Positions 7,548 through 50,027 are shown, counted from the first letter of the whole stretch. The stretch is DNA of 62,550 bases, filler included, from 7 parts of 7 records of this genome joined end to end with filler, not necessarily neighbours in it, one strand, 5' to 3'. The notes: a model not told the origin generated them from the sequence alone. Program-made: numbers and translations.

Positions 7548-7584
7548 TCCTAACATTGTCATGATATACAGGGAGGAGACCTGA

Positions 7585-11069: not shown

Positions 11070-11185
11070 TGAAATACGGCATGCCGGACCTGCGCGACTT
11101 CTTCGCCGCCGACGAACGCTGGACTTCGCATTACGGGTTCCGGCCGCTGGACATTCCGACGCTGTTTGGCGGGTTGAGTTCGTGA
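11070..11185 (+). CDS. pheS: Phenylalanine-tRNA ligase alpha subunit, 3' end (partial)
   Basis: [37 protein letters not shown] is the alphaproteobacterial PheS C-terminus; lies upstream of pheT. Confidence 0.93.
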
Positions 11186-11604: not shown

Positions 11605-11611
11605 GGAAGGG

Positions 11612-12104: not shown

Positions 12105-12124
12105 TGGACGAGCCCCACCACTGG

Positions 12125-12155
12125 CGTCATGCTCGGGCTTGACCCGAGGATGAGG
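12125..12155. repeat. Rhizobiales REP-like palindrome
   Basis: CGTCATGCTCGGGCTTGACCCGAGGATGAGG hairpin. Confidence 0.7.
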
Positions 12156-12298
12156 TCGAGAGTCAGCGCCGGTGTTTGAAGGCAGAGCGAGATATTGCGT
12201 GTTAGATGAGTGACTGGAGCGGCGCAAAAATACTTCAGCAAAACTTCGTGATCTCGTAGATTGCGATCACGTTTCTAGCAGTGGCGTTGGGAAGAAAA

Positions 12299-12862
12299 AT
12301 GGACCTAGTAAATTTTGGAGCTGGGATAGCGGTCACTGTTGTTGGTGGGTTAGTGCTTTTCCTTTTAACGACCTTTGTATTTAACAGAAATTCGATCTGG
12401 TGGTCTCCCGATCTCCCTTCCACCTCCGGAATCAGAAATTTCTTATTTGATAAAACGGATGGCGAACGAACGCGAGCCGAATTTTCCCAAGCAAGTGCTT
12501 TGCTAAAAGTGAAAACGTGGTCTCAGGTTCGTGAGGTGACACTTCATATAAAAGGCGAAGGGGTGAATGTTACTGTTTACCCTAAAACGCCCTTCGATCT
12601 TACTTCTGATGGAGATAGGGCCAAGGTGATATTTCGATCCTTAGGCCCCGGTCAATATGCTGTTCACGCCTATAGTTTCTTACCATCTAGAACATTTCTT
12701 GAGTTCGAAGGCGTGGATGCCAATAACGCTGTAGCAATTAAGCGTCGCGAGCAAGATCGCGCATTTAATAGTATAAGCTGGGAGCTTATATTTTACAGAA
12801 TAATCGGCCTTTCTATGACTACAACTCTACTCGTTCGTTTGGTAACTCAAGGCGACCTCTAG
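12299..12862 (+). CDS. AT-rich orphan membrane protein
   Basis: Open 187 codons; hydrophobic helices at both ends; visibly lower GC than flanks. Confidence 0.65.
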
Positions 12863-12906
12863 GTCCTCCTTTTCTCCTGATCTCTTCAATATTTGGGAAT
12901 AAAATC

Positions 12907-15348
12907 ATGAAATTCACACTGTCCTGGTTGAAGAACCATCTGGAAACCGAGGCCTCGCTTGAGGAAATCTGCGAGCGGCTGACGACGATCGGGCTTGAGG
13001 TCGAGGCGGTCGATGACAAGGCGGCCTACAGGCCGTTCACCATCGCCAAGGTCATCGAGGCGAAGCAGCATCCCGATGCCGACCGGCTGCGGGTGCTGAC
13101 GGTTGACGGCGGGCCGGCGGTCAATGGCGGCAAGCCGCTGCAGATCGTCTGCGGCGCGCCGAATGCGCGTACCGGGCTTGTGGGCGCGCTGGCGCTGCCG
13201 GGGACCTATGTGCCGGGCATTGATGTCACGCTGTCGGTTGGCAAGATCCGCGGTGTCGAGAGCCAGGGCATGATGTGCTCGGAAAAAGAGCTCGACATGT
13301 CAGACAATCACGACGGCATCATCGACCTGCCCGACGATGCGCCGCTCGGCGCGTCCTTCGCCGCCTATGCCGGGCTCGATGATCCGGTCATCGAGATCAA
13401 CCTGACGCCGAACCGTCCGGATTGCACCAGCATTTTCGGCATCGCCCGCGATCTGGCCGCCTCCGGCCTCGGCACGCTGAAGACGCGGCCAGCGCCCTCT
13501 TTCAAGGCCGAGGGTGAAACCCCGGTCGGCCTGACGCTCGATTTCCCGGCGGAAGACAGGCATCTTTGCCCCGGCTTCGCGCTGCGTCTGGTGCGCGGCG
13601 TCAGGAACGGCCCGAGCCCGAAATGGATGCAGCAGCGCCTGATCGCGATCGGTCTTCGCCCGATCAACGCACTGGTCGACATCACCAACTACATGACCTT
13701 CGACCAGGGCCGGCCGATGCATGTCTTCGATGCCGCCAAGGTCAAGGGCGGCCTTGTCGTGCGCCGGGCAGAGGCGGGCGAGACGCTGCTGGCGCTGGAT
13801 GAGCGCGAGTATGAATTGAATCATGACAATGTCGTGATCGCCGATGACAATGGCGTCGAATCGATCGGCGGCATCATGGGCGGCGAGCATTCGGGCTGCG
13901 ATGAAAACACCACCGACGTGCTGATCGAATCGGCGCTGTGGGACCCGATGAACATCGCCCGCACCGGCCGCACGCTCGGCATCATCACCGATGCGCGCTA
14001 CCGTTTCGAGCGCGGCGTCGATCCGGAATATATGGCGCCGGGGCTGGAGCGCACCACCGAACTGGTGCTGGAACTCTGCGGCGGCGCGGCGGCGGAAGCC
14101 AAGGTCGAGGGCTATGAAGGCTATACGCCGAAGGTCATCGATTATCCGTTTTCCGAGGTCAAGCGCCTCACCGGGCTCGAAGTCTCTTCCGCCGAAAGCC
14201 GCGATATCCTTACCCGCCTTGGCTTTGCGGTTTCGGGCGAGGGCGAGCGGGCAAACGTTTCCGTGCCGTCCTGGCGGCCGGATGTCGAAGGCAAGGCGGA
14301 CCTCGTGGAAGAGGTGATGCGCATCCACGGCGTCGATGAAATCAAGCCGGAGCCGTTGCCGGCAACGGGCGCGGTGAATGAGAAGATCCTGACCACGCTG
14401 CAGATCCGCTCGCGCTCTGCCCGGCGCGAGCTTGCGGCACGCGGCATGCTGGAGGCGGTCACATGGTCGTTCATCCCGGAAGATCAGGCGAAGCTCTTCG
14501 GCGGCGGCGCGCCCGCGCTGAAGCTTTCCAATCCGATTGCCGCCGATATGTCGGATATGCGGCCCTCGCTGCTGCCCGGCCTGCTGACGGCCGCGCGCCG
14601 CAATGCGGCCATCGGCCACGGCGATATCGCGCTGTTCGAGGTTGCCGCCACCTATGAGAACGACACGCCGGAAGGCCAGCGCCGCGTTGCCGGCGGCATC
14701 CGCCGCGGCACGGCGACGCTTTCCGGTTCGGGACGGATGTGGTCGAACACGGAGACCGGCGCCGGGCGCGCCGTCGGCGTGTTCGATGCCAAGGCCGATG
14801 CCCTGGCGGTGCTGGAGGCCTGCGGCCTGCCGATGGGCAATGTCCAGATCGTCGCCGGCGGTCCGGACTGGTATCATCCCGGCCGCTCGGGAACCATCAA
14901 GATGGGCCCCAAGATCGTGCTCGGCCATTTCGGCGAATTCCATCCCAAGGTGCTGGAAGCGCTCGATGTCTCCGGCAGGCTTGCCGGCTTCGAGGTGTTC
15001 ATCGATGCCATGCCGGAGCCGAAGAAGAAGCCGACCCGCACCAAGCCGGCGCTGACGCTGTCGCCGTTCCAGGCCGTTACCCGCGACTTCGCCTTCGTGG
15101 TCGACCGGAAGGTGGAGGCTGGCGCGATCGAACGGGCGGCTGCGGGCGCCGACCGCAAGCTGATCACCGGCGTCACCGTCTTCGACGTTTTCGAGGGCGC
15201 TTCGCTCGGCGAGGGCAAGAAATCGGTCGCGATCGAAGTCGCGATCCAGCCCGCCGAGCGCACGCTGACGGATGAGGATTTCGATGCGCTGATGAAGAAG
15301 GTGATCGCCAATGTCGAGAAGTCGACGGGGGGCATGATCCGGGCATAG
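12907..15348 (+). CDS. pheT: Phenylalanine-tRNA ligase beta subunit
   Basis: [43 protein letters not shown]. Confidence 0.99.
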
Positions 15349-15459
15349 GGAGACCGTCCGGCCTTTTCTGGCGGGAGCTGCGGTCATCTGTCTCCCGCCC
15401 AAGCCTTGCCGCATCGCGCCGCCGCTCCTATAACCGGGGAAACAATCGTGGAGACACCG

Positions 15460-16212
15460 ATGACCGAGGCTTCCGGCAAGACGACGATCGATGACGCACA
15501 GGTCGAGTGGTTCTCGAAGATGGCGGCGGAATGGTGGGACCCGCGCGGAAAATTCAAGCCGCTGCACAAGTTCAATCCGGTCCGCATCAGCTATATCCGC
15601 GAGAAGGCCTGCGGCCATTTCGGCCTGGACGAGAAATCCGCCCGCCCTCTGGAAGGGCTTCGTGTCCTCGATGTCGGCTGCGGCGGCGGGCTTCTGGCGG
15701 AACCGATGGCGCGCATGGGCGCAAGCGTCGTCGGCATCGATCCCGCCGAGAAGAATATCGGGATTGCAACCACCCATGCCGCTGAGACCGGCGTATCGGT
15801 CGATTACCGCGCCACCACGGCGGAAGCGCTTGCCGAGGCCGGGGAAAGCTTCGATATCGTGCTCAACATGGAAGTTGTCGAGCACGTCGCCGATGTCGAT
15901 TTTTTCCTGACGACCTGTTCGTCACTGGTGAAACCCGGCGGCATGATGTTCGTTGCCACCATCAACCGCACGCTGAAGGCCGGGGCGCTGGCGATCTTTG
16001 CCGCCGAGCGGGTGTTGCGCTGGCTGCCGCCCGGCACCCATCAGTATGAAAAGCTGGTGCGTCCGGAGGAAATCGAGACGCCGCTGAAAGCCTCGGGGAT
16101 GACGCCCGTGGAACGCCAGGGCGTGTTCTTCAATCCGCTGACCGACAGCTGGAACCGCTCGAAGGACACCGACGTCAATTACATGGTGCTGGCGGTGAAG
16201 CCGGAGGCCTGA
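15460..16212 (+). CDS. ubiG: Ubiquinone biosynthesis O-methyltransferase
   Basis: [33 protein letters not shown]. Confidence 0.96.
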
Positions 16213-16241
16213 TCAGGTCGCGGCTTTTGCGCGGCGTGGGA

Positions 16242-16772
16242 TCAGTTGAACACTTCGTTCGGATAGACGCCCCAGATGTCCTTCTGGTGCATATAGCCCT
16301 TGACGCCCTTCACCTGCAGCTCGCACCAGGTGCCGTCGCATTCGTCCAGGTTAACGATCACGCCCGGTTCCACGCTTGCGACATCGCGCGCCGAATCGTC
16401 CTTGCCGGCCTTCAGCGCCAGAAAGGTCTCGCCGTCGGTGCCGTTGCGCAACCAGGGCGCGACCATGGCATTGCGCTGCGAGGACAGTACGGAGACATGC
16501 ATCCAGCCCTCGGTGCCGTCGGCATCGCGCACCTGCCGCCAGACGCTGTATTCCTCGGTGATCTCGACGGGAAGGCCGGGGCGTTTGTAGATCCATTTGG
16601 TGGCGTAGTTGAAGCCGGGGCCGACGCGCATGCGGGCCCTGTCGGGCTTGACCATCGCAAAACGCGGCAGCGGCCCGCCCGAAGCGCCCTTGCGCTCGGT
16701 CTGCGCCATCGCCGGTTCCAGCATGGCGAAGACAAGCAATGTGCAGATCAGCAATCTTGCCAGACGACGCAT
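16242..16772 (-). CDS. Exported tandem bacterial SH3-domain protein
   Basis: Signal peptide; PLPRF, RVGPG..Y, WRQVRDADGTEGW, IWGVYP. Confidence 0.9.
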   Translation of the reverse strand: MRRLARLLICTLLVFAMLEPAMAQTERKGASGGPLPRFAMVKPDRARMRVGPGFNYATKWIYKRPGLPVEITEEYSVWRQVRDADGTEGWMHVSVLSSQRNAMVAPWLRNGTDGETFLALKAGKDDSARDVASVEPGVIVNLDECDGTWCELQVKGVKGYMHQKDIWGVYPNEVFN

Positions 16773-16971
16773 ATGACCTCTTCGAATGCCGTTTCTCCGG
16801 CCTTGTCTTGTTCTATTGGCACGTGGCCATGTCCTGGGGCTGTGCGCGTGCCCCTTCGTCGAGGGATTTACGCGTCCGAAGCGGTTTTCGACACGGGAAG
16901 AACCGCTTCAGGTGGAAAAGCGCCCTCATTATGTGCATTATCGCCCGACATGATTAATGAGCTGTTAACCG

Positions 16972-17979
16972 ATGAATAACCCCAGAAAACCTGTTGTCGT
17001 CGTCACCCGCAAACTGCCCGATCCGGTGGAGGCGCGGATGGGTGAACTGTTCAGCGTCGAACTGAACCTCGAGGACCGGCCGCTTTCACGCGCAAAACTC
17101 GCCGATGCCATGGCGAGGGCCGACGTGCTGGTGCCGACGCTGACCGACACCATCGATGCCGCGCTGATCGGCAAGGCCGGTCCGAACCTGAAACTGATCG
17201 CGAGTTTTTCCAACGGCATCGACAATGTCGATGTCGATGCCGCCGCCCGGAAGGGAATCACCGTTACCAACACCCCCAATGTGTTGACCGAGGACACCGC
17301 CGACATGACCATGGCGCTGGTGCTGGCGGTGCCCCGCAGGCTTGCCGAGGGCGCGCGGCTGCTCGCCGGCAACCAACCGGACAGCTGGCAGGGCTGGAGC
17401 CCGACATGGATGCTCGGAAGGCGGATCTGGGGCAAGCGGCTCGGCATTGTCGGCATGGGGCGGATCGGCACGGCGGTCGCGCGCCGGGCAAAGGCGTTCG
17501 GGCTTTCCGTGAACTACCACAACCGTCACCGCGTCAATCCGGAAACCGAAGCCGAGCTGGAGGCGACCTATTGGGACAGTCTCGACCAGATGCTCGCCCG
17601 CGTCGATATCGTGTCGGTCAACTGCCCGTCGACGCCGGCCACCTATCACCTGGTCTCGGCCCGTCGGCTGGCGCTGCTGAGGCCCGAGGCCTATATCGTC
17701 AACACCGCGCGCGGCGACGTGATCGACGAGGCGGCGATGATCCGCTGCCTGGAGGAAGACCGGATCGCGGGGGCCGGGCTCGATGTGTTCGAGAACGAAC
17801 CGGCGATCAATCCGCGGCTCCTGGAACTCGCCAAAGCGGGCAAGGCCGTGCTGCTGCCGCATATGGGCTCGGCCACGCTCGAAAGCCGGATCGATATGGG
17901 TGACAAGGTGATCATCAATATCCGCACCTTTTTCGACGGTCACCGCCCACCCAACCGGGTGCTGCCAGGGCGGATCTGA
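16972..17979 (+). CDS. D-2-hydroxyacid dehydrogenase (glyoxylate reductase/D-glycerate dehydrogenase)
   Basis: NTPNVLTEDTAD, GIVGMGRIG, NTARG, LLPHMGSAT. Confidence 0.95.
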   Translation: MNNPRKPVVVVTRKLPDPVEARMGELFSVELNLEDRPLSRAKLADAMARADVLVPTLTDTIDAALIGKAGPNLKLIASFSNGIDNVDVDAAARKGITVTNTPNVLTEDTADMTMALVLAVPRRLAEGARLLAGNQPDSWQGWSPTWMLGRRIWGKRLGIVGMGRIGTAVARRAKAFGLSVNYHNRHRVNPETEAELEATYWDSLDQMLARVDIVSVNCPSTPATYHLVSARRLALLRPEAYIVNTARGDVIDEAAMIRCLEEDRIAGAGLDVFENEPAINPRLLELAKAGKAVLLPHMGSATLESRIDMGDKVIINIRTFFDGHRPPNRVLPGRI

Positions 17980-17985
17980 AGCGCT

Positions 17986-18540
17986 TCAGCCGACAACCTT
18001 CAGCCGCATGCCCACCCGCAGATGGGGCAGCAGAACGCGCATCGCCTCAGGCGCGATCGCCACGCATCCGGCGGTCGGCGAAAAATCCGGGCGGGCGATG
18101 TGGAAGAACACGGCAGAGCCGAGATTGCGGGCGCGCGAGCGCATGTTCCAGTCCATCACGACTACGAGGTCGTAAATGCCGTCGTCGCGTTGCAGGCGTT
18201 CATGGCTCGCAGCGAAGGGCAGGCGGACGGGGCGGTTATAATTCGGCGAGGCCGGTGCATCGCACCAGCCATTATCGGCCCTGGTCGCCATGAGCCCCAG
18301 CCCGGAACGCGGCCAGCCTTGCCGATGCCTTGCATCGCGGTAACCGTAAAGCAGCGCCATTGCGGCGATCGGCGTCCTGCCGTCGCCCTCGCGCTTGAAG
18401 GCCGTCATGCCGTTCCGGCCGATTGCAGCCCGGAAGCGGAGCGGGCCGAAGGCAAGAATCGCGCGGTGGGCGGGACCCGGCGCGCGACGCACCACGATCA
18501 CGCCTCGTGTTTTCATCGCTGAACGGCTGGTTTTCTTCAC
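17986..18540 (-). CDS. L,D-transpeptidase (YkuD-like) family protein
   Basis: KREGDGRTP, WCDAP, GSAVFFH...PTAGCVA. Confidence 0.88.
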   Translation of the reverse strand: MKKTSRSAMKTRGVIVVRRAPGPAHRAILAFGPLRFRAAIGRNGMTAFKREGDGRTPIAAMALLYGYRDARHRQGWPRSGLGLMATRADNGWCDAPASPNYNRPVRLPFAASHERLQRDDGIYDLVVVMDWNMRSRARNLGSAVFFHIARPDFSPTAGCVAIAPEAMRVLLPHLRVGMRLKVVG

Positions 18541-18561
18541 TTTTTTTTGCTTTGTACGTGA

Positions 18562-18661
18562 NNNNNNNNNNNNNNNNNNNNNNNNNNNNNNNNNNNNNNN
18601 NNNNNTTAATTAATTAANNNNNNNNNNNNNNNNNNNNNNNNNNNNNNNNNNNNNNNNNNNN
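18562..18661. other. Artificial contig spacer
   Basis: N44-TTAATTAATTAA-N44. Confidence 0.99.
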
Positions 18662-23853: not shown

Positions 23854-23953
23854 NNNNNNNNNNNNNNNNNNNNNNNNNNNNNNNNNNNNNNNNNNNNTTA
23901 ATTAATTAANNNNNNNNNNNNNNNNNNNNNNNNNNNNNNNNNNNNNNNNNNNN
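23854..23953. other. Artificial contig spacer
   Basis: N44-TTAATTAATTAA-N44. Confidence 0.99.
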
Positions 23954-33784: not shown

Positions 33785-33884
33785 NNNNNNNNNNNNNNNN
33801 NNNNNNNNNNNNNNNNNNNNNNNNNNNNTTAATTAATTAANNNNNNNNNNNNNNNNNNNNNNNNNNNNNNNNNNNNNNNNNNNN
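33785..33884. other. Artificial contig spacer
   Basis: N44-TTAATTAATTAA-N44. Confidence 0.99.
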
Positions 33885-34029
33885 CTCGGCCCCCGCTCGG
33901 CCTCGCGCGCCCACCCCCCCGGGGCCGTGAAGCCGCCTCGCCGGGCCCTCGGCCAGTGGTGCGGCCGACTCGGCCCTACAACCATATACAAGTAGTGCTC
34001 AGTATGCACGGAAGGAACGACCCAAGTGC

Positions 34030-37000
34030 ATGACCATGAGACGGCCGACTGCTGCCTTGCTCTTGCTTTGCTTGGTGCTGTCGCCGGCCCAGGTGGCCCT
34101 CGGGCTCCGCAGGTCCGCGGGGCCACGCGTCGGACCGGTGCCGCCTCTCGTCCTCCGCGGCCAGGTTGAGACCGAGAGCCCGACCACTAGCCAGCCCTTG
34201 GTGGTGCCGGCTGCCAACGCCACAGAGGTTCCGGTTGGGGAGCCATCTGTCAGCCCTGGGTCTGTTCCCGGGACGGTTCAGCTTGTGCAAGAAGAGAGTG
34301 CCGCCCAGGCCCGTGCGCGGTCAAAGGCGCGCCTGGCCGTAACGTCGTCGTTAATGCTCGCCACTTCCGCAGTTTACGCGACAAACACACTGCTCACATA
34401 CTTCCGCAAACAGAAGGCGGAGGCGGTATACGAGCCAATCCTGGAGATCAAAGATAAGGTGTGACGGTCGGCTCCGGTCGGCCTGGGCCGAGTAGGGTGC
34501 GGTGCAGTAAAACTGACTACGCCGTTGAGTGCAGATATCGCAAGGACAGGTTGCTCAGTGCATTGCTTTCCGGGAGATTCGCTTCCAAGTCATGATGTTC
34601 CAGGTAAGAACAGCTCGGCACCAGCCGGCGGTACAAGGGGCTTCCGTGGTGGGCTGATGGTGGTGCTAACTGCAGTATTCGACAAAAACTTATGAGGCTG
34701 TGTCGCTCCTTCATGTGGTAAGGAGGGAGTGTGTGGGGTCGGGAGGGGCGCGGGCTGATGGCGAGCTGTGCCCAGCGGGACCCGGACACGTCGGACCAGC
34801 TCAAGACGATCGATGACCAGCTGGTGAAGCTGCAGCTGAAGACCAAAGATATCCTCGACAATGCAGTGACGCTGGTGAGTGGCGTGCAAGTGGTGGCGGG
34901 GCCGACTGGCGGGGTGGGGCCGACTGGTGGGGCCGACTCTGATGCCTCGCGCGCTCTCAGGCATGCTTCCCGAACGACGACGAGTCTGCTTATTTCTCCT
35001 CGGTGCACAGCATTGAGCAGACGGTCAAGTCAGACATCGCGCGGTTTCAGGGCGCCATCGAGTCCAACGCGCGCAACTTCATCATCTCCGCATGCACTAT
35101 CGGCATTGGGGAGCTGGCCGTGCCTGACGATATCAAGGAGAACCTATTTGATAATATCCAGAACCTCGCCCAGGGCCTGGAGGAGGTAAGCGTGGGCCGG
35201 GGGAGGGGAGGGGCGTGGCGAGCTGGGCCTGAAGGTCGCGCGTGTTTTGTGCAGGTGTCCCGAGGCGGCTCCCCGAAGGTCCTGGCCGAAAAGTTTGCCG
35301 GCAAGTACATCGTGGGCCTCTTTCTGATCAAGGCGTTTTATGAGGCGAAAGACAAGGACCTTGTGTCGTCCGCGGGTGATCTGCTCCAGGCATCGTCCCT
35401 GGTGCTCGCGGAAATTCTGGAGGCGATGGGCCAGGACACCGGGCCTGCCACCGTCATGATGATTGTCGGCAAGTCCCTAGTCCTTGCCAAAGCGATGAAG
35501 GATCTGTCGAGCACCATCCAGGGCCTCTTGGTGGACAACGTCCGATATGAAAACATGCACTCCAAGGCTCAGATCCACGGGGAGATGTTTGCCCGCGAGC
35601 AGGTGAGGTGTCCGCCTCGCCGCAGTGCGCGATCGCCTTACTGATTCGCCCGTTTTGGTTCTGCAGACCTTCAAGATGTGCGCTCTCACGAATGAGGTCG
35701 TACAGCTGACCGACAGCCAGAACAACCTCTTCCGCATCCACCAGAAGCTGCTCGGGCTGAGCGATGGCGGGGACTTGGACATGTCCGCGGAGGTGGAGGA
35801 GCAGAAGGCGGCTGCCGAGGAGATGAAGGCGCGCCTTGAGGAGATGTGCATGAACGGCGACACCCAGCTGTGCTATTCGTCGCTCAACCGCCCCCAGGTG
35901 ATCCACCTCCTCGAAAGCATCCTTAGTAGGGCCGACGGTGGAGGCGACCTCTTGCCAACCATTGAGAAAGAGGCCCTCACTGGACCCATCACCGACTTTG
36001 CCGTTAGGTGAGTTCAACCCCCTTTCCCCGCGCGGGAATCAGTTATCCGACCGGGGCTGATCGGAGTCACAGCACTACGGAGGAGCAGTCTGTGTCGCTG
36101 CGATCCATGGGGTTCAGTCTCCTGAACAGCGAGCCTGTCGAGGGCGGGAAGCTGCTGTGGTATTGCCGGGCGTGTGACAAGGTCGGCTCGGCGAAAACGG
36201 CGTCTGGGGCCCGGGCCTGTGCTGACGTGGCTGTGTTTGCGCAGGAGGGAATCACGAAGGCATTCATGTACAAGTTCAACCCTTACTACCCGGACTCCAA
36301 CGGAGACAAAGTCGAGGATATCGAGAGCGCGCACGTGCTCCGGGTATCTGACAATGCCTTCCTGGTGTACTGGATGGAGGCTCGGTTTCCGACGTACGTG
36401 TATTAATTGACATCAGCCACGTCGATCAATCCCGTGATTTTGAGGTGCCGTGCTGACTGTTGCGTTTCCAGGACCAAGAGGACCAGATTTCTCTACGAGG
36501 CCGCCCTGGATCAGTCGCAATCCGGTAGGCATCGGAGAGGGCACTGGCTTGTGTGTTCCTGACGTTCTGCCTCAGCCGAGGAGGTCGCGGATGCCCTGCA
36601 GGAGCGCTACGTCAGTAGCGGGATGGAGCTGCAGTACAACAATGATGAGCGGAGCATGGGGTTCTGGAAAGGAGTGCTGATGGTGATTACCTTCACCCTG
36701 GTCGAACCCACGATCTATGTAGCCGAAACCTACTTTTTCGCCAACTATCTGACCCAGCCATCCTCGAGCTCGTAAGTTTTCGTGTCATCTTGGTGGGTTG
36801 GGACTGGGCCGTGGACTGACTAGGATGCAGCACCCATCTCTCAGAAATGGAAGGCAACGCGAGGAGGCCTTTCCCCGTCGTTGGGTTCCGTGTGGTGGGT
36901 GGAATATGCGGCAGTCCGAGCGAGCTGTCGAGGGCAGGTTGGACCCTGGAGTACAGCAACGCCAACACCCCTGGCCTCATTGACAGTGACACTGGCGAGG

Positions 37001-38664
37001 AGGACCCGGCTCGGCGCCGCGAAGTATGGGTCCGGCGGGCATCCTCTGAGACGCCGTCTTCCGACGACCGGGAGCTCGACCGGATCCTTCCCAACCTCAC
37101 CGGCGATACGTGCATTGGCGAGAACGACCCGGCGGGGAAACAGATGAAGGCGGGCAACGCGGATTTGTTCGCTAAGATCAACGAAGACAAGTAGGGAACC
37201 CGTGCGGGTGATAAGGTCCGGTGGGGGGGGGGCATTCATTGACACCGCGCGTAGGATTGCCGACATTGGGTTCTGTTCGATGAACTCTGACAAGTGCAAG
37301 TCCTTTCATGTCAGCGCCGGGGGCTGGCAGTATTTTGGCCGTTACGTTCACATGAGCCTCTCCCTGGATGTATATGTGAAGTATACGATTGAGGAGTCGG
37401 CCGAGGAGGCCCTGGCCTCGCCGTCGATAAGCACTCTCGTCTCCGAAACCGCCGATCGCTTCACGTAAGTACAACCGCGACATCCCGCTCCTCTCTCCTG
37501 TGCCTGACATAGCCCGCAGGCAGTGGAAGTGTTACGCCCTGAATCCACTGATCAAGAGCGGAACCTGCAAATTTAAGGGGGTTGCCGACTCTGGAGGCCC
37601 CGAGGTCTACACTAGCCGCAGCAAGAACATCAATGGTAACTGGTATGCCTTCTGGCACGACGGAATGGGAACCCGGAAGTGAGTTGGGGGGCGCGTCCCG
37701 GACACCGTGGCACTTGTACTTATCTAGCCTTACCATCAGCTGTGAGCATGGCAATTACTATAACAACAAATGGGATGACCTGATGGGCGTGAGCCGTGCG
37801 GCCGGGGAGGCTCTGTACCAGCTGTACTACAACAAGGGTTGGACGTACCTCCACGGCTCCAAGCTTGACGACAGCGACGCCGAGTTCCCCAAGTGGGTGG
37901 CGGAGCGCTTGAAGGCGACGAAGAAGGCATTTGCGCAGCCACTTACCCTGGCAGATCTGCCATTTGGCAAGGACAAGGACGCGGACCTCAAAAAGTACAA
38001 GGAGTTGTACGAGCTGGACTGCCGCACCCGCGTGACCTATCCGGTGCGATGGATGGGAGGTGAGTGGTTCAGGGCTGTTTCGTACGCGCTGGTCTGACTT
38101 TAGTTCCCCGAGATGGTAATGGTGACTGCCTGTATGGCCGCACGGTATCGGTCAACAGCGATGGCGTGATCTCGGAGAAGTGTGATGCGCACGGCACTGA
38201 GCTCCACGTTGGACCGGTGGGTGGATGACCTAGGTGTGTTTTGGGAGGAGAATCGAGGGTTGACCCGGTGGTGGACAGGTGTATATCGTGGAGGTGGTGA
38301 TGAACTCGGAGGACCGGCTCAGCTACGACGTGAACGTGAGTGCAGTGGGAGCGTTTGTGCGCGGGCTAGCTAACCCTGTAACCTCTGTGTAGCGGCCTGA
38401 AAAACACGACATCACTAACGCAGCCCGGAACGGCTGGTACCCGCTTCCCCGCGAGCACAGGAGCGAGGAGGTGGCCAGCGGGGTGTACGGCACCTTTTAC
38501 GGAACTATTCGGATTTGGGCGCATATCGAGGGTAGGTTTGGGCGGCCGGGTGGCATGGGCCCGGGTTAGTTGGGCCTGATGGGTTGCTTTGTATAGATGT
38601 CCTAGAGCCGTCCCCTGAAACTGACGCATTCGCGGGCTGGTACCGGGAGAATTGCGAGATCTAA
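34030..38664 (+). CDS. Large secreted multi-exon protein (~19 exons, roughly 1150 aa) with helical hydrophobic N-half and MABP-like repeats
   Basis: Signal peptide; GT-AG introns with CTRAY branch points (e.g. 34459-34534, 34604-34675, 34718-34775) join in frame; ends WYRENCEI* followed by AATAAA at 38672. Confidence 0.75.
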
Positions 38665-38812
38665 AGTGAGGAATAAATGATTTTCGTAAAATCAAGGATT
38701 GTTGGGTGGCGGCTGCGGGCTTGGGCCGCCGATACCTCATGACATAGAAAGCTCGCTAGTAATCCACTTTATTCAGAGGGGCATAGCGTGATTCATCTTG
38801 GCCATATAGGGT

Positions 38813-40665
38813 TCAGTCGATGGGTTCGTTCGCGTGATTCGGCCTGCCCCTGCCACCAGCCGGGTGATGGTCCTCAAACTCACCATCGCCATCATCACCG
38901 TCACTTGACGACTCGTCGTCGCTTTCACCATTTCCCGGTAGGGGCGCCTCCCCATCAACAAGGGGATTGTGGAAAGGTTCCGTGGCACCAAACGTCCTCG
39001 CAGCATACATTGCTTGGAGGCCCGCCGTTGAGGCCCGACGATTTTGCCTTAGGTGCGAAAGGAGCATAGGCGAATCGTTCAAAGAAAGCGGTGACCCTGA
39101 GCGCAGACCACTCTGCTCCGCGACGGATTGGACATCGTCAACATCTGTCGGTCCTTTCCGGCGATCATCCACACAGGAACTCCCGTCCGCGCGCTTAACT
39201 TTGGCGACAGGCACGTGGTGTCGGCACGGGTACCCCTTCTCCCAATATTCTTCACAAGAATCCAACTGGCCTAAGTAATCTTCACAGTTGGTGATCGTGA
39301 AGCCTAGCTGGGGCTCCCAGAGGACCTATCGCAAACCATGAGCGAACATGTTCCTAAAGACCCTCACAGCCGCATTCACCTCATCTTCCTCTTCGTTCAA
39401 GGATATCCGGGAAATGTCAAACGCCCCAGATCCAACACTGATCTCCCACCAGGTCTTAATACCAGTCTCGGAGGTGGAAAATTTGAAGTCGTGCCTTTTT
39501 GTAGTCGACAAGAATGATGGCCACTGCGAACAACTTCAGTGAGAATTACTCGGAACGCATCATGGTGCTATCAGCCCTACGTGAAAGGTGCCTCCGTGTT
39601 GCAAGCACGCGGTCTTCATAATGTTCTTCTCGTTCATCCCATTGGCAGAACGGAAAACAACCCCGGAATCCGAACACGTCCATCTTTTCGCGTTATCTGC
39701 AGCCATCATCCCGGAGCCAATAAGAATTGCGTTGGACATCACGTCCGATATCATGCCCTGTAAGCGGAGTCAGGAGCACAGAAAACCGACACCAGCCGCA
39801 GCCTCACAACTGAGCCGCCGACTGTGGCGATGACTTCAGTAATGGCAGCAGCGCCAGCATCCCTATCCAAGTCAACAGCGTTAGATTCTCCGCTATCGCC
39901 TCCCCGTAACTCGCCCTTCTTGGTATCGCATAGCCACGACATTGACCTGAAAAAAACAAATCTCCATTAACCCGAATTTTTGCGCCACGCTGCCTTCAAG
40001 TCACACGTACTCGATCATTTCGTATCTTTCCACAAACTCGACCGTCCACAGTGTCGGCAGCCTTGATAGCCATGCGTTGATCTCCCGATAGCCAGCTGCA
40101 GAATAAGACTTGACAGCCTCTTTAACCTGGAGCCGATGTCAGATGTAACTCCCCGCCGTCGCTCGGCGTGCTTACAACGCGCTGGCGGACCTCTTCCGGC
40201 GTGAGACTGTCTTCGTATTCATCCCTCTTTCTTTCTTTGACTATTGAAACCGGAACGTTGTCCGCCAAAAAGTTCACGTTCCGAACGAATTCTCTGCGCA
40301 GGCACGGGTGATTTCAGCATCTCTGTAAAAGATTGTGACAGACGCTCTCACCTCGCGTCAAACCGCACTTCATCGCCCTGTTTGCGTTTAAGTGTGCACT
40401 CAAACTCCGGCTCGATCGTCCGGAAGGCCTCGCGGCCAACAGGGGCCATAGTCTTCTCGATACCTGATAATTCCTCCAAAAAAGAACACGTTAGCCTCTT
40501 AACAGCACGAAGCGCGTTGTGAACCTCGGCTCTGTTGACTAGTGTGCACTCGACACGTTTATCCCACTTGGCTTCAAGAAACTCTGAAGCAGTTGGCGTC
40601 CCTAGTCCACGTTGAACGGACAACGCCAGCATGACCAAGATGGCCCAGCCCAGAGAAAGACGCAT
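38813..40665 (-). CDS. Secreted R-S-E type mono-ADP-ribosyltransferase (7 exons, 506 aa)
   Basis: Exons 40665-40352, 40293-40176, 40126-40011, 39946-39808, 39757-39581, 39523-39380, 39325-38813 join in frame. Motifs YSAAGYREINAWL, VFR, WPSFLSTT, FDISRIS...EDEVLWEP; signal peptide; AATAAA at 38768-38773. Confidence 0.85.
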
Positions 40666-41397
40666 CTCCCCGCTTACCAGCACTGCACAAGGATGGGAAA
40701 GCGGATGCCTTCTATGTATAGATTGGGTAGCCGAAACCACTTGATTAGCCGGCGCCGGGCGCCGGGCCGGGCCGGGCCACCGCCGGGCGGCTCCGCCGGG
40801 CGGCTGCTTCCCGGCACCGCGGCCGCCCTGCCAGGGCCCGGGCGGCCGTCCGTCGGTGAGCGCGAGCCGACGACCAGGGGACGGGCGGCGGGCCGCGCCG
40901 GCGCCCGAGCCCACGGCCCGGGCCCGGCCCCGGGCGTGTGGGCCGCCGGACTGCCGCCCGATACCCCTCCCGCCGGCGGGGGGCGTAGGCGCGCACACCC
41001 GCGAGTGCCAACCGCTACCTTGATCCGTTCACGGTGCCGGGTTCAACGCGGAGTTCCGGTTCCCGGCACGGTCCGGCACCTCAGCCGCCCGGACGGTTCA
41101 GCGCCGGCCACTGACTCATCAGAGGCGGGCCGGGGCCCCTGGTGACGGCCGCGGCCGGCCGGCCCCGGCGCCGCCTGACCGGACCCCGGGGCCCGCCCGG
41201 CCAGTGTTGGACCGGCCCAGGGCCTTCAAGGCAAGGTACGGGCCGGGCCGGCCCGGGGCCCGCCGGCCTGGCCCCGGGCCGGGGCCGCCCGGCGGCCCGG
41301 CCGGCTCTGTGGGTGCCCCGAGGCTGCCCCGCCCTGTGAGGTACGAATATCAGTTAGTGGAGAGCAAGTTTTGAACAGTCGAGATAGTCGGCCCCGC

Positions 41398-41928
41398 ATG
41401 ACTAGACACAACGTGCTGAACGCCACGTTCGAGTTCAAAGGCCGGCCCGGGAGCCTGGACCTGAGCCGCAGCGACGACCCCGGCCGTGACCTGGTGGAGT
41501 GGTTGGATGCCGAAGGGATTTTCGGGTCAACCGAGGTGGACCTTCTTGTCGTAAGCCTGTCTACGGGAGAATGGGACCTTACTCTCCATAAGTTCTGCGG
41601 GCTAAGGCAGGAGGACAAGGATCGGGCGGCCCTCACGGGGCCCACCCTCGATACAGATCTGGAGCGAAGCGCGCAGATTTACTTGTGTCCGAATGCAGAT
41701 AGCGATACGGCATTGACGGACGAGTGGCCGGGCTACCTTGCGTTGAGACCGGCGGGGTTGGACGATGCACGGGAGTTCGTGCCCGAAATGGTGTTCGTAT
41801 ATACTTATCAGGGTACCGATACGCCCTCCAAGTATCTGGTGCCGCTGGGGGTGGCGTTCCGGGCCCTGAGGGAGTTTGCGGAAGGGTCCCTGCGGCCGAC
41901 ATGCCTTGATTATGAGAAAGTCGAGTGA
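41398..41928 (+). CDS. Imm1-like immunity protein (intronless)
   Basis: C-terminus LVPLGVAFRALREFAEGSLRPTCLDYEKV matches the Imm1 pattern vp...a..al.eF..tG.rP.cv.W; acidic; no signal peptide. Confidence 0.65.
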   Translation: MTRHNVLNATFEFKGRPGSLDLSRSDDPGRDLVEWLDAEGIFGSTEVDLLVVSLSTGEWDLTLHKFCGLRQEDKDRAALTGPTLDTDLERSAQIYLCPNADSDTALTDEWPGYLALRPAGLDDAREFVPEMVFVYTYQGTDTPSKYLVPLGVAFRALREFAEGSLRPTCLDYEKVE

Positions 41929-42952
41929 TGCAGTATTGTGCCGCATGCCGCCTAGCCGTGCAGGGGAGGGATGGAGCTAGCCGTGTTCAAGCGAGTGTCT
42001 GTGAAATATTATTTGGATCACACGGCGCGTTCACTGTATGGGCGCGCCAAGGCCCTGGCGTCACGGATGCCCGCCTCACCGACTTGTAGACACTTTCCGG
42101 GACTGAATGAATACACAAACATCCACACTCGCGGTACACACCATCAGCATGAGACTCAACTTGGACGACTGCCGGCGCGCCGGCACCCCCCCGCGGCCAC
42201 CCGGCGGGCAGCGCCGCGGCCGCGGCCGGCGCGGCCGGCGGGAGCCCGGCGGCGCCCGGCGCCGGGGGGGCCGCGGCCGCGCCACACTGCGGACCGACCC
42301 GCACTGATCACCAGCGCGTCCCCGCTTGGGATACCATTTATTATATTAAGGTATTTCGTTACTAAGAGTGAGTAATAGAAGCGTAATTACGCTACAATTA
42401 CGCTACAACATGGCAACGCGTCTACTTATTTTGAGTAATCACAGTACAGCCCCGAACGGCTAAGAACAACCTGACAGCAACCCGTCGGTGGTCGTTGCGG
42501 GTCGGGTCCTGGCCGGTCGACCAGCCCGGCTACCGGCACCACCTCAGGGCAGCTCACTGAGGGGACGCCGCCATCCGTCGGACCGGCATGCCTCAGCGGC
42601 AGCCGGAGATCCTGAGGTGACGATGAGTCATCAATAATCGCCGCCACCCACCCATCACCCCTCATCAGTGACCGGCGGCCATGGCGAACCAATACATTCT
42701 GTGTTTGTCCGCTCCTCCAACACTCGTTGACCGCAGCCGCACTCCATCTGAGTTCGGTGAGGGCCAAGGGCCCAGTCCGGCGCATACCCGTGGCGGGCGC
42801 GCCAGTCCGCGCTGCCTGACGGTCGGCGCAGAGCCCCAGGCCGCCGGCCTGCCGAGTTTAGCCTAATCGTGGCCCAGTTATATAATGTTGAAGCTCTGCC
42901 CAGGAGCCCGGCTTTACAACCCGGGCCTAGAGATAACTAAACCCTTCACAGC

Positions 42953-44351
42953 ATGGGAGAAGGCTCTCTTTGCAGGCTATCCATCGCCGTCCTTGCCTTG
43001 TGCATCGTCCTTCCGCACCTTGCTCGCGGCGACTCTGAAGTTGCGCGGCAGAGCGGTGCGCCGGATTATGACTCGTCCAACGTCGACGGTCTCGTATTCT
43101 TCAGGCGCTATCGTGACTCCGCTTGTTCAGAGCTGATGGGTGACGCCGTGTTTCAAACGCTCGCGTCGACGAGCAGCAGTTACGTTAACACGGGTTACGC
43201 GGCCAGTGCCGTCAGCAACCTGGGAAAGGTGGACCATCTCACGTTCTCTAGGAGCGGTTCACACAGTACCACTGTGGTAGGTGGAGAGTGTTGCAGTGCC
43301 GAGTTCCGTATTCTTGCCTAGTGACACAACCGCATTTTCTTGCGTTATATTTCGTAGACAAGGCACAATGGCTGCACCGGGTCATCCAGTTATTTCAACC
43401 CAAGTGACTGCACATCCACAACCACGGTGACGTTCGATACATACTTGAGCTCGGTGTCAGATTGTGCTGCTGTGACGATGCCCTGGGGCACCACTGAGTA
43501 CCTGGAGCTGTAAGTGTCAGCCAGTCGCTCCCGCCACCCGCTGCTACCTGAAAGAGGCACTAACTGCGACCTCTCTCCATCGTCCCACAGGTATGATAGC
43601 ACTTCAGATGTGTGGCAGGCGCCGTATGGTTGGATATCAGTCTGGGGCATGACCGGGGCCTCTCAAGGTGGGTGGAGCGCGGCCCTGCTGGAATGAACGA
43701 CGGTGTGCTGAACGACTGAATGTGGCTGATCTTCTCTCTCGCGCAGTCGTTCTTCGCCCATTTAGCACAGACTGTGACTCCACTCCTGTGATCACCGTCT
43801 TTGAAGTGGACACCTGTTATTACATATCGACGCAAGGTAGGTGGACCCCCAGTGGCGCCAGTTCAAGGCACTGTCATTAACGGACGGTTTGAAGAGCTCT
43901 CCGGGTACAACTCGGCCATGTACAGCTTCGACTCCTCCGAAGACGCCCGGTCGGTGACGTACTACACTGGCACTGACTGCACCGGATCGACAAAGACGGC
44001 GACCATTCCGGTGAGTGCCTTGTCCAGCCCCTGCAGTGTTGGGCCTGTTGGTCGGAAATCTGATATCCTTCTGTTCAGTACGGGACCTGCGGTAAGCTGG
44101 ACTCCTCGTCCTCTCGATACGTCACAGCTCGGGGCAAGTTCAATGAGTGGTGGGCGGCGGCCATTGTGGCCGGCTTGATATTGTTGGTGCTCACACCCAT
44201 CGCGGTGGTGCCGTGCTCGTGGCCTCTTCACATATTCTTTGGCTACTTGACCATAGCTGGGATTGTGTTCTACGCTAAATACGGTAGCTATCCCTTCGAC
44301 AGTACCAGCAACTTCGATACCACGACGACAGACACCTGGACGGGTAGTTAA
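42953..44351 (+). CDS. Multi-exon Cys/Ser/Thr-rich cell-surface protein with C-terminal TM helices
   Basis: Signal peptide LSIAVLALCIVLPHLARG; several GT-AG introns; YYTGTDCTGS motif; hydrophobic C-terminus; TATATAA at 42879. Confidence 0.65.
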
Positions 44352-44388
44352 GCAAAATAAACCACAGCACCAGGCTCAGTCAGGCCCC

Positions 44389-44415
44389 GGTTGGTTGGTT
44401 GGTTGGTTGGTTGGT
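44389..44415. repeat. (GGTT)n microsatellite at contig end
   Basis: Perfect tetranucleotide repeat. Confidence 0.9.
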
Positions 44416-44515
44416 NNNNNNNNNNNNNNNNNNNNNNNNNNNNNNNNNNNNNNNNNNNNTTAATTAATTAANNNNNNNNNNNNNNNNNNNNNNNNNNNNN
44501 NNNNNNNNNNNNNNN
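44416..44515. other. Artificial contig spacer
   Basis: N44-TTAATTAATTAA-N44. Confidence 0.99.
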
Positions 44516-49927: not shown

Positions 49928-50027
49928 NNNNNNNNNNNNNNNNNNNNNNNNNNNNNNNNNNNNNNNNNNNNTTAATTAATTAANNNNNNNNNNNNNNNNN
50001 NNNNNNNNNNNNNNNNNNNNNNNNNNN
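49928..50027. other. Artificial contig spacer
   Basis: N44-TTAATTAATTAA-N44. Confidence 0.99.

What the first reader, a model, noticed from the sequence alone, without database searches (positions are those of the whole stretch)
34030..41928. Candidate eukaryotic toxin locus: secreted ADP-ribosyltransferase, putative delivery protein and Imm1-like immunity gene
Seen: three adjacent genes in an intron-rich protist contig. A secreted ART lies tail-to-tail (148 nt apart) with a ~1150-aa secreted protein and divergent from a cytosolic Imm1-like gene. Known: binary toxins (C2, iota, VIP) pair an R-S-E ART with a separate pore-forming component, and Imm1 genes neighbour toxins in bacterial polymorphic toxin loci. 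Inference: a protist A-B toxin/immunity system for predation or competition. Functional linkage rests only on adjacency.
Basis: partly seen in the sequence, partly recalled or inferred. Interest (0 to 1): 0.85.

Follow-up and report, generated by a model that had tools for sequence, protein, structure and literature searches.

The report
Protist secreted ADP-ribosyltransferase with orphan neighbours
A microbial eukaryote carries an expressed, intron-bearing gene for a secreted toxin-type ADP-ribosyltransferase, flanked by two genes without detectable relatives, one of which faintly resembles a bacterial immunity protein; a toxin-delivery-antidote system is not shown.

Summary
cDNA-like contigs of one public run (a 95-99% identical relative) show all three transcribed and spliced. 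They lie on one 10.5-kb contig (33885-44415). The window is seven contigs joined by N spacers, two of them bacterial-looking.

The minus-strand gene (7 exons, 506 aa) has an N-terminal hydrophobic leader. It is an R-S-E ADP-ribosyltransferase of the C3/VIP2 type. Its spliced product scores 38.4 bits (E 3.9e-11) against a profile I built from 9 bacterial PF03496 domains, while 757 decoys score 3.0 bits or less. R265, S294-T295-T296 and E334-D335-E336 align.

The 1148-aa secreted neighbour has no detectable family, so a PA-type binary-toxin B component is not supported.

The 176-aa neighbour passes Pfam's Imm1 cut-off (24.8 vs 22.4 bits, E 3.9e-5), but only over the last third of the profile. 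It lacks the family's C-terminal tryptophan and had no credible relative among 1.84 billion proteins. The Imm1 partner toxin named in the passages read is a deaminase, not an ART.

Verdict: a solid new eukaryotic member of a known toxin-type enzyme family. The toxin-immunity link is an untested lead, and the A-B toxin reading is unsupported.

The parts
33885..44415 (.). The single assembly contig that holds the finding (10,531 bp, GC 0.594), bounded on both sides by N44-TTAATTAATTAA-N44 spacers
34019..38623 (+). Transcript of the large gene. The 5' end at 34019 is marked by adaptor-like loose letters.
34030..38569 (+). CDS of the large secreted protein: 18 exons, 1148 aa. It has an N-terminal hydrophobic leader (residues 8-26) and no other hydrophobic segment. 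No family match was found. The last three introns (38060-38112, 38217-38278, 38336-38392) are inferred.
   Evidence: 19 synonymous vs 9 non-synonymous differences to X1 support the frame
38766..40684 (-). Transcript of the ART gene as covered by the cDNA contig. The 5' end at 40684 carries adaptor-like loose letters.
38813..40665 (-). CDS of the ADP-ribosyltransferase, 506 aa. Exons: 40665-40352, 40293-40176, 40126-40011, 39946-39808, 39757-39581, 39523-39380, 39325-38813.
40600..40665 (-). Predicted signal peptide of the ART (residues 1-22). Hydropathy peak at residues 3-21.
   Evidence: the cleavage site was read by eye and no predictor was run
40011..40126 (-). ART exon 3, holding the helix-3 motif (GYREIN, residues 156-161), aligned to profile positions 29-47
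39581..39757 (-). ART exon 5, holding the catalytic arginine R265 (VVFRS)
39380..39523 (-). ART exon 6, holding S294-T295-T296 (FLSTT), the loop, and E334-D335-E336. The motif continues as VLW in exon 7.
38816..39271 (-). C-terminal extension of the ART (about residues 355-506). It is rich in G/D/S/P, carries three cysteines near its start (C360, C370, C387) and has no family match.
40685..41376 (.). 692-nt, 77% GC region between the two divergent mapped 5' ends. It is a possible shared promoter.
   Evidence: the promoter function is inferred
41377..42184 (+). Transcript of the small gene as covered by the cDNA contig, with no intron in this stretch
41398..41928 (+). CDS of the 176-aa Imm1-like protein (stop codon included). 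It has no hydrophobic segment.
41782..41910 (+). The part of the small protein (residues 129-171) that matches Pfam Imm1 profile positions 80-122 of 125

Best explanation
The centre of the locus is a bona fide nuclear gene of an unidentified GC-rich, intron-rich microbial eukaryote. It encodes a secreted, single-domain mono-ADP-ribosyltransferase of the R-S-E (C3/VIP2, Pfam ADPrib_exo_Tox) type.

How it most likely works:
- The protein enters the secretory pathway through an N-terminal signal peptide. This is inferred from hydropathy.
- It binds NAD+ with R265 and the S294-T295-T296 turn. It uses E336 of the E-D-E motif to transfer ADP-ribose onto a target protein. An E-x-E rather than Q-x-E motif suggests arginine as the acceptor; that link is recalled family knowledge.
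- The target is most likely outside the cytosol of the producer: prey or competitors in a phagosome or the medium, or the producer's own surface proteins.

Its bacterial-type sequence, together with six spliceosomal introns, suggests an old acquisition from bacteria that has since been domesticated. This step is inferred.

The two flanking genes are separate transcription units that encode lineage-restricted proteins. The 1148-aa secreted protein is of unknown fold and is not a recognisable toxin B component. The 176-aa cytosolic protein carries a real but partial Imm1-like signal. Whether it neutralises the ART is open; I put that at about 0.2.
For: Expression and splicing. Three cDNA-like contigs carry GT..AG joints and adaptor-marked 5' ends. 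The first ATG after each mapped 5' end opens the ORF.

ART identity:
- A profile built from 9 of the 20 bacterial PF03496 places found in 401 genomes scores the spliced protein at 38.4 bits, E 3.9e-11. The best of 500 shuffles plus 257 window ORFs scores 3.0 bits.
- The MAFFT alignment puts VVFRS under the family's YRG, FLSTT under FxSTS and EDEVLW under ExEvLf.
- Pfam on exon 6 alone points to the same family at the same profile positions (117-162), although weakly.

Secretion. There is a single N-terminal hydrophobic segment and no other.

Eukaryotic origin. The ART gene has six introns of 49-64 nt, and the same contig holds an 18-exon gene.

Neighbours are orphans:
- Small protein: 0 credible hits among 1.84 billion representatives and none in the word-based search.
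- Large-protein piece: none.
- No exon of the large protein matched Pfam, PHROGs, PADLOC or PDB sequences.
Against: - The strong score therefore comes from my own small profile.
- No structure of the ART could be predicted.
- No close ART relative was found. The exon-6 searches returned nothing real, so the bacterial origin is inference.
- The signal peptide was judged by hydropathy only.
- Adjacency of a toxin-type ART and an Imm-family gene is improbable by chance if both assignments are right. That argues against treating the small gene as an unrelated neighbour.
- The ART differs from its X1 allele by 7 non-synonymous against 3 synonymous changes plus three in-frame indels. This fits either an arms-race effector or a relaxed gene. 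The numbers are small, and 7 variants were not listed by the tool.
Confidence: 0.6

Rival explanations
1. Toxin-antidote pair. The ART and the Imm1-like protein descend from a bacterial polymorphic-toxin cassette. They are co-expressed from the shared 692-nt divergent promoter region. The cytosolic Imm1-like protein binds and blocks any ART that fails to enter, or leaks from, the secretory pathway. The large protein is not part of the system.
For: - Pfam Imm1 is above its curated cut-off (24.8 vs 22.4 bits, E 3.9e-5).
- In the Atlas feature search, 25 of 30 hits fall in the set represented by a cluster where 25% of members carry PF14430, score 0.93 with 194-205 of 256 features shared.
- Both genes are transcribed and divergent.
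- The small protein has no leader, so it would sit in the cytosol.
- Iyer 2011 (passages) states that Imm1 also occurs with toxin domains other than deaminases.
- Chance adjacency of two such rare gene types is unlikely (inference).
Against: - The match covers only profile positions 80-122 of 125.
- The family's hallmark C-terminal Trp is missing. The last Trp is W110 of 176 (read; the hallmark is).
- Atlas recognition was 2006, below the tool's 2300 mark, so by the tool's own note this is weak evidence.
- phmmer over 1.84 billion proteins found no real relative.
- The AF2 model is poor (pLDDT 48.6).
- The gene is upstream and divergent, not immediately downstream as in bacterial cassettes (passage).
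- The named partner of Imm1 in the passages read is the deaminases. R-S-E ARTs are listed with Imm41 or ADP-ribosyl-glycohydrolase.
Confidence: 0.2
2. The ART is the A component, the 1148-aa secreted protein is a pore-forming or translocating B component, and the Imm1-like protein is the antidote.
For: - Both proteins have N-terminal leaders, and the genes are neighbours and both expressed.
- The N-terminal half of the large protein is predicted helical and contains a hydrophobic-rich stretch, as read from the exon 6 translation. The AF2 model of 34961-35602 is all-helical but has pLDDT 41.
Against: - None of the 15 in-frame exons or ORF pieces of the large protein hit any family at E up to 0.1-10. 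That includes the PA14 and Binary_toxB families, which are part of Pfam-A.
- There is no PDB sequence relative and no Atlas lead (0.77).
- The ART has one ART domain, whereas binary-toxin A components have an extra N-terminal ART-fold adaptor (recalled). The profile gives one set of motifs, with about 125 residues before the core.
- The two genes are convergent and have separate transcripts.
Confidence: 0.05
3. Endogenous ecto-enzyme. The ART is not a weapon. Like the vertebrate ARTC ecto-ARTs, it is a regulator that modifies the organism's own secreted or surface proteins. The neighbours are unrelated.
For: - It is secreted, single-domain and carries the R-S-E motifs.
- Vertebrate ecto-ARTs share this build (recalled knowledge).
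- No delivery module is recognisable.
Against: - The only Pfam pointer is to the bacterial exoenzyme family PF03496. No hit to any other ART family appeared.
- No C-terminal hydrophobic segment is seen, so no GPI-anchor signal (that a GPI signal needs such a segment is recalled).
- The excess of non-synonymous changes and indels between alleles is more typical of conflict genes, although the numbers are small.
Confidence: 0.15
4. Artefact. The ART and Imm1-like genes belong to a contaminating bacterium in the assembly.
For: Two other contigs of the same window are bacterial-looking, with IclR, TetR, bacterial-type PheT and bacterial SH3 domains among others.
Against: - Six GT..AG introns are removed in the cDNA contig of the ART, and more than 14 in the neighbouring gene on the same contig.
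- The contig's other genes have eukaryote-style structure.
- No bacterial genome or metagenome contig matched.
Confidence: 0.01

Closest known systems
C3-like exoenzymes and other single-domain members of Pfam ADPrib_exo_Tox (PF03496)
   Same: - The R, S-T-S and E-x-E active-site motifs are present in the family's order and spacing.
- The helix-3 Y..IN..LR motif is present.
- There is a single catalytic domain, and the protein is secreted.
   Different: - It is encoded by a spliced eukaryotic gene.
- A 29-aa insertion follows helix 3 and a longer one precedes the arginine strand.
- It has extra N-terminal (about 100 aa) and C-terminal (about 150 aa) regions of unknown function.
- It carries E-x-E rather than the Q-x-E of C3 proper (recalled).
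- The best pairwise identity to the sampled bacterial members is only about 32% over 71 aa.
Binary actin-ADP-ribosylating toxins (C2, iota, CDT, VIP1/VIP2)
   Same: An R-S-E ART with E-x-E lies next to a gene for a large secreted protein.
   Different: - There is no second ART-fold adaptor domain.
- The neighbour has no PA14 or Binary_toxB match, nor any other family match.
- The genes are convergent, not co-transcribed.
Bacterial polymorphic-toxin ART-immunity pairs (Tox-ART-RSE with Imm41 or ADP-ribosyl-glycohydrolase; Zhang 2012, passages)
   Same: A toxin-type ART lies adjacent to a small leaderless alpha+beta protein that matches an immunity family.
   Different: - The immunity family differs (Imm1-like).
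- The orientation is divergent instead of downstream.
- The ART is a free-standing secreted protein, not the C-terminal tip of a long trafficking protein.
- The host is a eukaryote.
Imm1 family proteins such as SCP1.202 and UmbD1 (passages)
   Same: Similar size, no leader, predicted alpha+beta, and a Pfam score above cut-off over the C-terminal third.
   Different: - No C-terminal Trp.
- The first two thirds of the profile are not matched.
- Zhang 2012's table lists only bacterial phyla for Imm1.
- The partner here is not a deaminase.
Vertebrate ecto-ADP-ribosyltransferases (ARTC family) and other eukaryotic R-S-E ARTs (fungi, insects, molluscs, plants listed by Zhang 2012)
   Same: Eukaryotic, secretory-pathway R-S-E enzymes thought to derive from bacterial toxins.
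   Different: - The sequence signal here points to the bacterial exoenzyme family.
- No C-terminal hydrophobic segment that could serve as a GPI signal is seen.
- The host is a protist.

Membership tests
ADPrib_exo_Tox (PF03496), R-S-E clade | Profile match over the family's cut-off | tested here: inconclusive
   The curated Pfam model could only be run on single exons. The best scores were 13.1 and 11.9 bits against a cut-off of 23.4, at profile positions 116-163. A profile I built from 9 bacterial PF03496-positive domains gives 38.4 bits, E 3.9e-11, on the spliced protein. The 757 decoys scored 3.0 bits or less.
ADPrib_exo_Tox (PF03496), R-S-E clade | Catalytic Arg on strand 1 ([YF]-R-[GS]) | tested here: met
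   VVF-R265-S aligns under the YRG column of 9 bacterial domains.
ADPrib_exo_Tox (PF03496), R-S-E clade | S-T-S turn | tested here: met
   F-L-S294-T295-T296 aligns under F-x-S-T-S.
ADPrib_exo_Tox (PF03496), R-S-E clade | [QE]-x-E catalytic motif followed by hydrophobic residues | tested here: met
   E334-D335-E336-V-L-W aligns under E-x-E-v-L-f. The motif spans the exon 6/7 junction, which the cDNA contig confirms.
ADPrib_exo_Tox (PF03496), R-S-E clade | ADP-ribosyltransferase or NAD-glycohydrolase activity | not testable with these tools
   Needs an enzyme assay.
Binary A-B ADP-ribosylating toxins | A component with an N-terminal ART-fold adaptor plus a C-terminal catalytic ART domain (recalled) | tested here: not met
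   The profile finds one set of motifs (residues 146-164 and 280-352). Only about 125 residues precede the core, and the leader takes 22 of them.
Binary A-B ADP-ribosylating toxins | B component of the protective-antigen family (PA14, Binary_toxB domains) | tested here: not met
   Pfam gave no such hit on 11 ORF pieces (E up to 0.1) or on 8 in-frame exons (E up to 10) of the large gene. This was an exon-wise test, so a very divergent relative could be missed.
Imm1 (PF14430) | Profile match over the curated cut-off | tested here: met
   24.8 bits against 22.4, E 3.9e-5. It covers only residues 129-171 against profile positions 80-122 of 125 (24.3 bits on the longer ORF).
Imm1 (PF14430) | Conserved Trp at the C-terminal end (Iyer 2011, Zhang 2012 passages) | tested here: not met
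   The Trp residues are at 35, 59 and 110. None lies in the last 66 residues. Tyr172 sits just past the matched stretch (sequence; feature). The profile column of the Trp could not be inspected.
Imm1 (PF14430) | Alpha+beta fold with a central sheet | tested here: inconclusive
   The AF2 single-sequence model has strands and helices but mean pLDDT 48.6. Foldseek found nothing at E 0.001 or better. The best VIA wide Z was 3.6.
Imm1 (PF14430) | Encoded immediately downstream of its toxin gene; the named partner toxin is an SCP1.201-type deaminase | tested here: not met
   The gene is upstream of and divergent from the ART. No deaminase family hit appeared on any ORF of the contig that was scanned. 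Iyer 2011 does allow other partner toxins.
Imm1 (PF14430) | Detectable sequence relatives among family members | tested here: not met
   phmmer over 1,835,955,588 representatives gave 1 hit. It is a 3130-aa bacterial repeat protein matched 14 times by one 35-residue stretch, and I judged it spurious. The word-based search gave none of 260 candidates. PF14430 was found in 0 of 401 Pseudomonadota genomes, so no family members could be fetched for a direct alignment.

The most novel reading that the evidence does not exclude
A eukaryote has kept a bacterial-style toxin-immunity cassette as a working pair. A secreted R-S-E ADP-ribosyltransferase would be used against prey or competitors. An Imm1-derived cytosolic antidote would be transcribed divergently from the same GC-rich promoter region and protect the producer. 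This would be the first Imm1-family protein outside bacteria and the first one paired with an ART. Possibly the orphan 1148-aa secreted protein acts as a new kind of helper.
Probability: 0.15. Interest if true: 0.8.

Novelty: new member of a known kind. Interest (0 to 1): 0.4.

Why it matters
R-S-E ARTs are classic bacterial toxins. Eukaryotic copies are known in only a few lineages: Zhang 2012 lists fungi, insects, molluscs and plants (passage).

This is an expressed, intron-bearing, secreted copy in a free-living protist. It adds a case of a domesticated bacterial weapon and offers a tractable candidate effector for protist predation or competition.

The more interesting point is the neighbour with an immunity-family signature. 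If it proves to be an antidote, it would show that toxin-immunity logic can survive transfer into a eukaryote. It would also widen the partner range of Imm1.

As it stands, the evidence supports only the enzyme. The rest is a lead that two cheap experiments could settle: co-expression rescue and pull-down.

Tried and rejected
Sequencing runs and genome
- No RNA holder was listed for the stretch. The one run listed (X1, kind '?', share 0.45) was laid and behaves as cDNA.
- No whole genome is held for the window.
- The store of earlier findings was not open.

Small (Imm1-like) protein
- Word-based homologue search: none of 260 candidates.
- NCBIfam, PHROGs, PADLOC: none.
- PDB phmmer: best E 0.016, two short stretches of xanthine dehydrogenase, rejected.
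- Plasmid tblastn: 16 records, best E 3, rejected.
- The single hit of the 1.84-billion search (P0001) was rejected as a repeat artefact.
- The AF2 model was too poor to use. Foldseek on PDB and VIA wide (best Z 3.6) gave nothing usable.

ART
- Exon-6 scan of prokaryote genomes: 1 locus (L001). The match lies antisense inside a 489-aa ORF, so it was rejected.
- Exon-6 'longer' protein search: 4 candidates, none scored.
- PDB phmmer with exon 6: 0 hits.

Metagenome contigs
- Small protein: none of 100 candidate stretches. ART exon 5: none of 263.

Fetching real Imm1 proteins for a direct alignment
- PF14430 was found in 0 of 401 Pseudomonadota genomes and 0 of 14 control genomes.
- A plasmid accession recalled from memory was not in the collection.

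Large protein
- 'Longer' search with 34961-35602: 4265 candidates, none scored.
- Atlas: 0.77, no lead.
- PDB: best E 0.18-0.23, rejected.
- AF2: pLDDT 41, not searched further.
- No internal repeats.

Other checks
- No paralogue of any of the three genes elsewhere in the window.
- No relative of either neighbour beside the 20 bacterial ART places, with about 1.5-kb flanks.
- Rfam: 0 matches in the window.
- 'Imm1' in PMC9424270 refers to differently named families and was irrelevant.

Not run
- Complex prediction, and a fold of the ART.

Full report
WHAT THE WINDOW IS

The 62,550-base window is not one molecule. Six spacers of the form N44-TTAATTAATTAA-N44 divide it into seven contigs.

- The first two contigs (1-10969 and 11070-18561) carry uninterrupted ORFs with typically bacterial domains: IclR, TetR, a bacterial-type PheT with B3_4/B5/FDX-ACB, and bacterial SH3.
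- The other contigs carry eukaryotic domains: emp24, calpain, Rab, MORN and a LON-RING protein.
- The finding lies wholly on the fifth contig, 33885-44415 (10.5 kb, GC 0.594).
- No whole genome is held for the window.

THE OBSERVATION

One public run, X1, holds 45% of the sampled words of the stretch. Its record does not say whether it is RNA. Laid on 33900-42400, it gave three contigs at 95-99% identity.

- A 3533-nt contig lies on the + gene from 34019.
- A 1621-nt contig lies on the - gene from 40684 to 38766.
- A 962-nt contig lies on 41377-42184.

The first two skip 48-86-nt segments with GT..AG ends. Fifteen joints were listed and nine more were not shown. All three carry the same adaptor-like loose letters at what would be the mRNA 5' end. 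I recall these as the tail of a template-switch oligo; this is recall, not a tool result. I therefore treat them as spliced, 5'-complete cDNA of a close relative.

Gene models came from the listed joints, the record coordinates and the per-bin depth.

- Large gene: 18 exons, CDS 34030-38569, 1148 aa. Its last three introns are the combination that reproduces the depth bins exactly. They are inferred rather than listed.
- ART gene: 7 exons, CDS 40665-38813, 506 aa.
- Small gene: a single exon, 41398-41928, 176 aa.

In each transcript the first ATG after the mapped 5' end opens the ORF. The 5' UTRs are 11, 19 and 21 nt.

Differences between X1 and the window give an independent check of the large gene's frame: 19 synonymous against 9 non-synonymous among those listed.

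Its '148 nt apart' matches an alternative last intron (stop at 38664). My best-fitting model gives 243 nt between the stop codons.

THE ADP-RIBOSYLTRANSFERASE

Only contiguous window translations can be handed to the curated tools. Pfam therefore saw the domain exon by exon. It gave only a weak pointer to ADPrib_exo_Tox on exon 6: 13.1 and 11.9 bits against a cut-off of 23.4, at profile positions 116-163.

To test the whole domain I fetched bacterial members of that family.

- PF03496 matched in 10 of 401 Pseudomonadota genomes, at 20 places.
- I took the 9 places that cover most of the profile, leaving out 11 partial ones.
- I built a profile from them and scored the spliced protein in the script machine.
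- The result was 38.4 bits, E 3.9e-11. The best of 500 shuffles of the protein plus 257 window ORFs scored 3.0 bits.

The alignment places four motifs under the family's conserved columns.

- A-V-K-S-Y-S-A-A-G-Y-R-E-I-N lies under the helix-3 motif.
- V-V-F-R265-S lies under Y-R-G.
- F-L-S294-T295-T296 lies under F-x-S-T-S.
- E334-D335-E336-V-L-W lies under E-x-E-v-L-f.

The last motif spans the exon 6/7 junction, which the cDNA confirms.

The protein has a single N-terminal hydrophobic segment (residues 3-21) and no other. A 29-residue insertion follows helix 3 and a longer one precedes the arginine strand. About 100 residues of unknown function follow the leader. A C-terminal extension of about 150 residues, rich in G/D/S/P, ends the protein.

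There is one ART domain, not two. I conclude that this is a secreted, single-domain R-S-E mono-ART. The enzyme activity, the acceptor residue (arginine is suggested by E-x-E, from recalled family knowledge) and the targets are inferred.

No close relative was found with exon queries. The one prokaryote locus (L001) is an antisense chance match. The protein-word search gave nothing, nor did PDB or metagenome contigs.

THE LARGE NEIGHBOUR

It has an N-terminal leader and no other hydrophobic segment, 19 cysteines, and no internal repeats. No family matched any piece.

- Pfam on 11 ORF pieces at E up to 0.1 and on 8 in-frame exons at E up to 10: nothing.
- PHROGs and PADLOC: nothing.
- PDB sequences: nothing credible.
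- A 214-residue contiguous piece (exon 5, an in-frame intron and exon 6) found no longer relatives among 4265 candidates. It gave no Atlas lead (0.77).
- The AF2 model of that piece is all-helical but unreliable (pLDDT 41).

There is thus no sign of a protective-antigen-type B component. The gene is convergent with the ART gene and has its own transcript.

THE SMALL NEIGHBOUR

Evidence for an Imm1 relationship:
- Pfam gives Imm1 (PF14430) at 24.8 bits against a cut-off of 22.4, E 3.9e-5.
- In the Atlas feature search, 25 of the 30 best hits fall in the set represented by a cluster where 25% of members carry PF14430. The score is 0.93, with 194-205 of 256 features shared. Recognition was 2006, below the tool's 2300 mark, so the tool itself calls this weak.

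Evidence against:
- The match covers only residues 129-171 against profile positions 80-122 of 125.
- The C-terminal tryptophan that Iyer 2011 and Zhang 2012 give as the family hallmark (passages) is absent. The last Trp is W110, and a Tyr sits just past the match.
- phmmer against 1.84 billion representatives found only a 3130-aa bacterial repeat protein, hit 14 times by one 35-residue stretch. I reject it as an artefact of summed repeats.
- Nothing came from the word-based search, PDB, plasmids or metagenome contigs.
- The AF2 model is alpha+beta but poor (pLDDT 48.6). Structure searches gave nothing.
- I could not fetch true Imm1 proteins for a direct alignment. PF14430 was found in 0 of 401 genomes.

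WHAT IS IN PRINT ON PARTNERS

- Zhang 2012 lists SCP1.201 deaminases as the toxin partner of Imm1 and gives only bacterial phyla for the family (passage).
- Iyer 2011 says that Imm1 also occurs with 'alternative toxin domains'.
- The umbrella-toxin paper reports the Imm1 protein UmbD1 co-precipitating with UmbC1. UmbC1's toxin domain is a cytosine deaminase, and umbD1 lies immediately downstream of the toxin gene.
- For R-S-E ART toxins, Zhang 2012 lists Imm41 and an ADP-ribosyl-glycohydrolase as immunity proteins.
- I read passages only. The supplements with alignments and neighbourhoods were closed.

HOW I WEIGH IT

The enzyme is solid. The A-B reading fails both membership tests that could be run.

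The toxin-antidote reading has one real argument. If the Imm1 signal is genuine, finding such a gene next to a toxin-type ART by chance is unlikely. In addition, the two genes face away from each other across 692 nt of 77% GC sequence that could be one promoter region.

Several points count against it: the partial match, the missing hallmark residue, the unusual partner family, the non-canonical orientation, and the absence of any relative with which to test conserved linkage. No paralogue of any of the three genes lies elsewhere in the window, and no relative of either neighbour lies beside the sampled bacterial ARTs.

I put the antidote function at about 0.2 and the three-part system at 0.05.

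The ART's allele in X1 differs by 7 non-synonymous against 3 synonymous changes plus three in-frame indels, all outside the catalytic motifs. This hints at fast evolution. The numbers are small, and 7 variants were not listed.

VERDICT

- This is a new eukaryotic member of a known enzyme/toxin family, well supported and expressed.
- The neighbours are orphans.
- The Imm1-like neighbour is a worthwhile but unproven lead.
- The binary-toxin interpretation is not supported.

Noticed in passing
window 10970-11069, 18562-18661, 23854-23953, 33785-33884, 44416-44515, 49928-50027: Six spacers (N44, a 12-base all-frame stop linker, N44) show that the window is seven separate contigs. Genes on either side of a spacer are not neighbours.
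   Followed up: yes
window 1-10969 and 11070-18561: Two contigs look bacterial. They carry uninterrupted ORFs with IclR, TetR, flavin reductase, BKACE, HpcH aldolase, bacterial PheT, bacterial SH3 and 2-hydroxyacid dehydrogenase domains, at GC 0.61-0.62. The assembly therefore mixes a eukaryote with at least one bacterium.
   Followed up: partly
window 42953-44350 (+): A fourth gene appears to lie on the same contig. Its ORF pieces begin with a hydrophobic leader (from 42953) and end with a hydrophobic stretch near 44150-44250. There was no significant Pfam hit. The laid stretch ended at 42400, so no cDNA evidence was obtained for it.
   Followed up: partly
window 38813-40665 (-) compared with run X1: The ART allele in X1 differs by 7 non-synonymous and 3 synonymous listed changes. 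It also has three in-frame indels: one at 39473 and two at the exon 3/4 and 4/5 junction regions. The large gene shows 9 non-synonymous against 19 synonymous changes. Seven variants were not listed by the tool.
   Followed up: partly
window 42184-42400: The cDNA contig of the small gene continues for 155 letters that do not fit the window beyond 42184, where a very GC-rich stretch begins. A 13-nt motif from that loose end occurs nowhere in the window. It could be a 3'-UTR intron to a place outside the stretch, a strain difference or a chimeric contig.
   Followed up: partly
window 34019, 40684, 41377: All three mapped 5' ends lie 11-21 nt upstream of the start codon. They map directly onto the genome, so the leaders are very short and there is no sign of a trans-spliced leader.
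   Followed up: partly
P0001 (library protein): A 3130-aa bacterial surface-repeat protein reached E 6e-20 against the 176-aa query only because one 35-residue chance match recurs 14 times. This shows how repeat proteins can inflate phmmer E-values.
   Followed up: yes
window 34961-35602 and 36073-36393 (+): Two introns of the large gene (69 nt and 63 nt) are in frame and free of stops. Stop-to-stop ORFs therefore run through them, and ORF-based reading would insert 23 and 21 false residues.
   Followed up: yes
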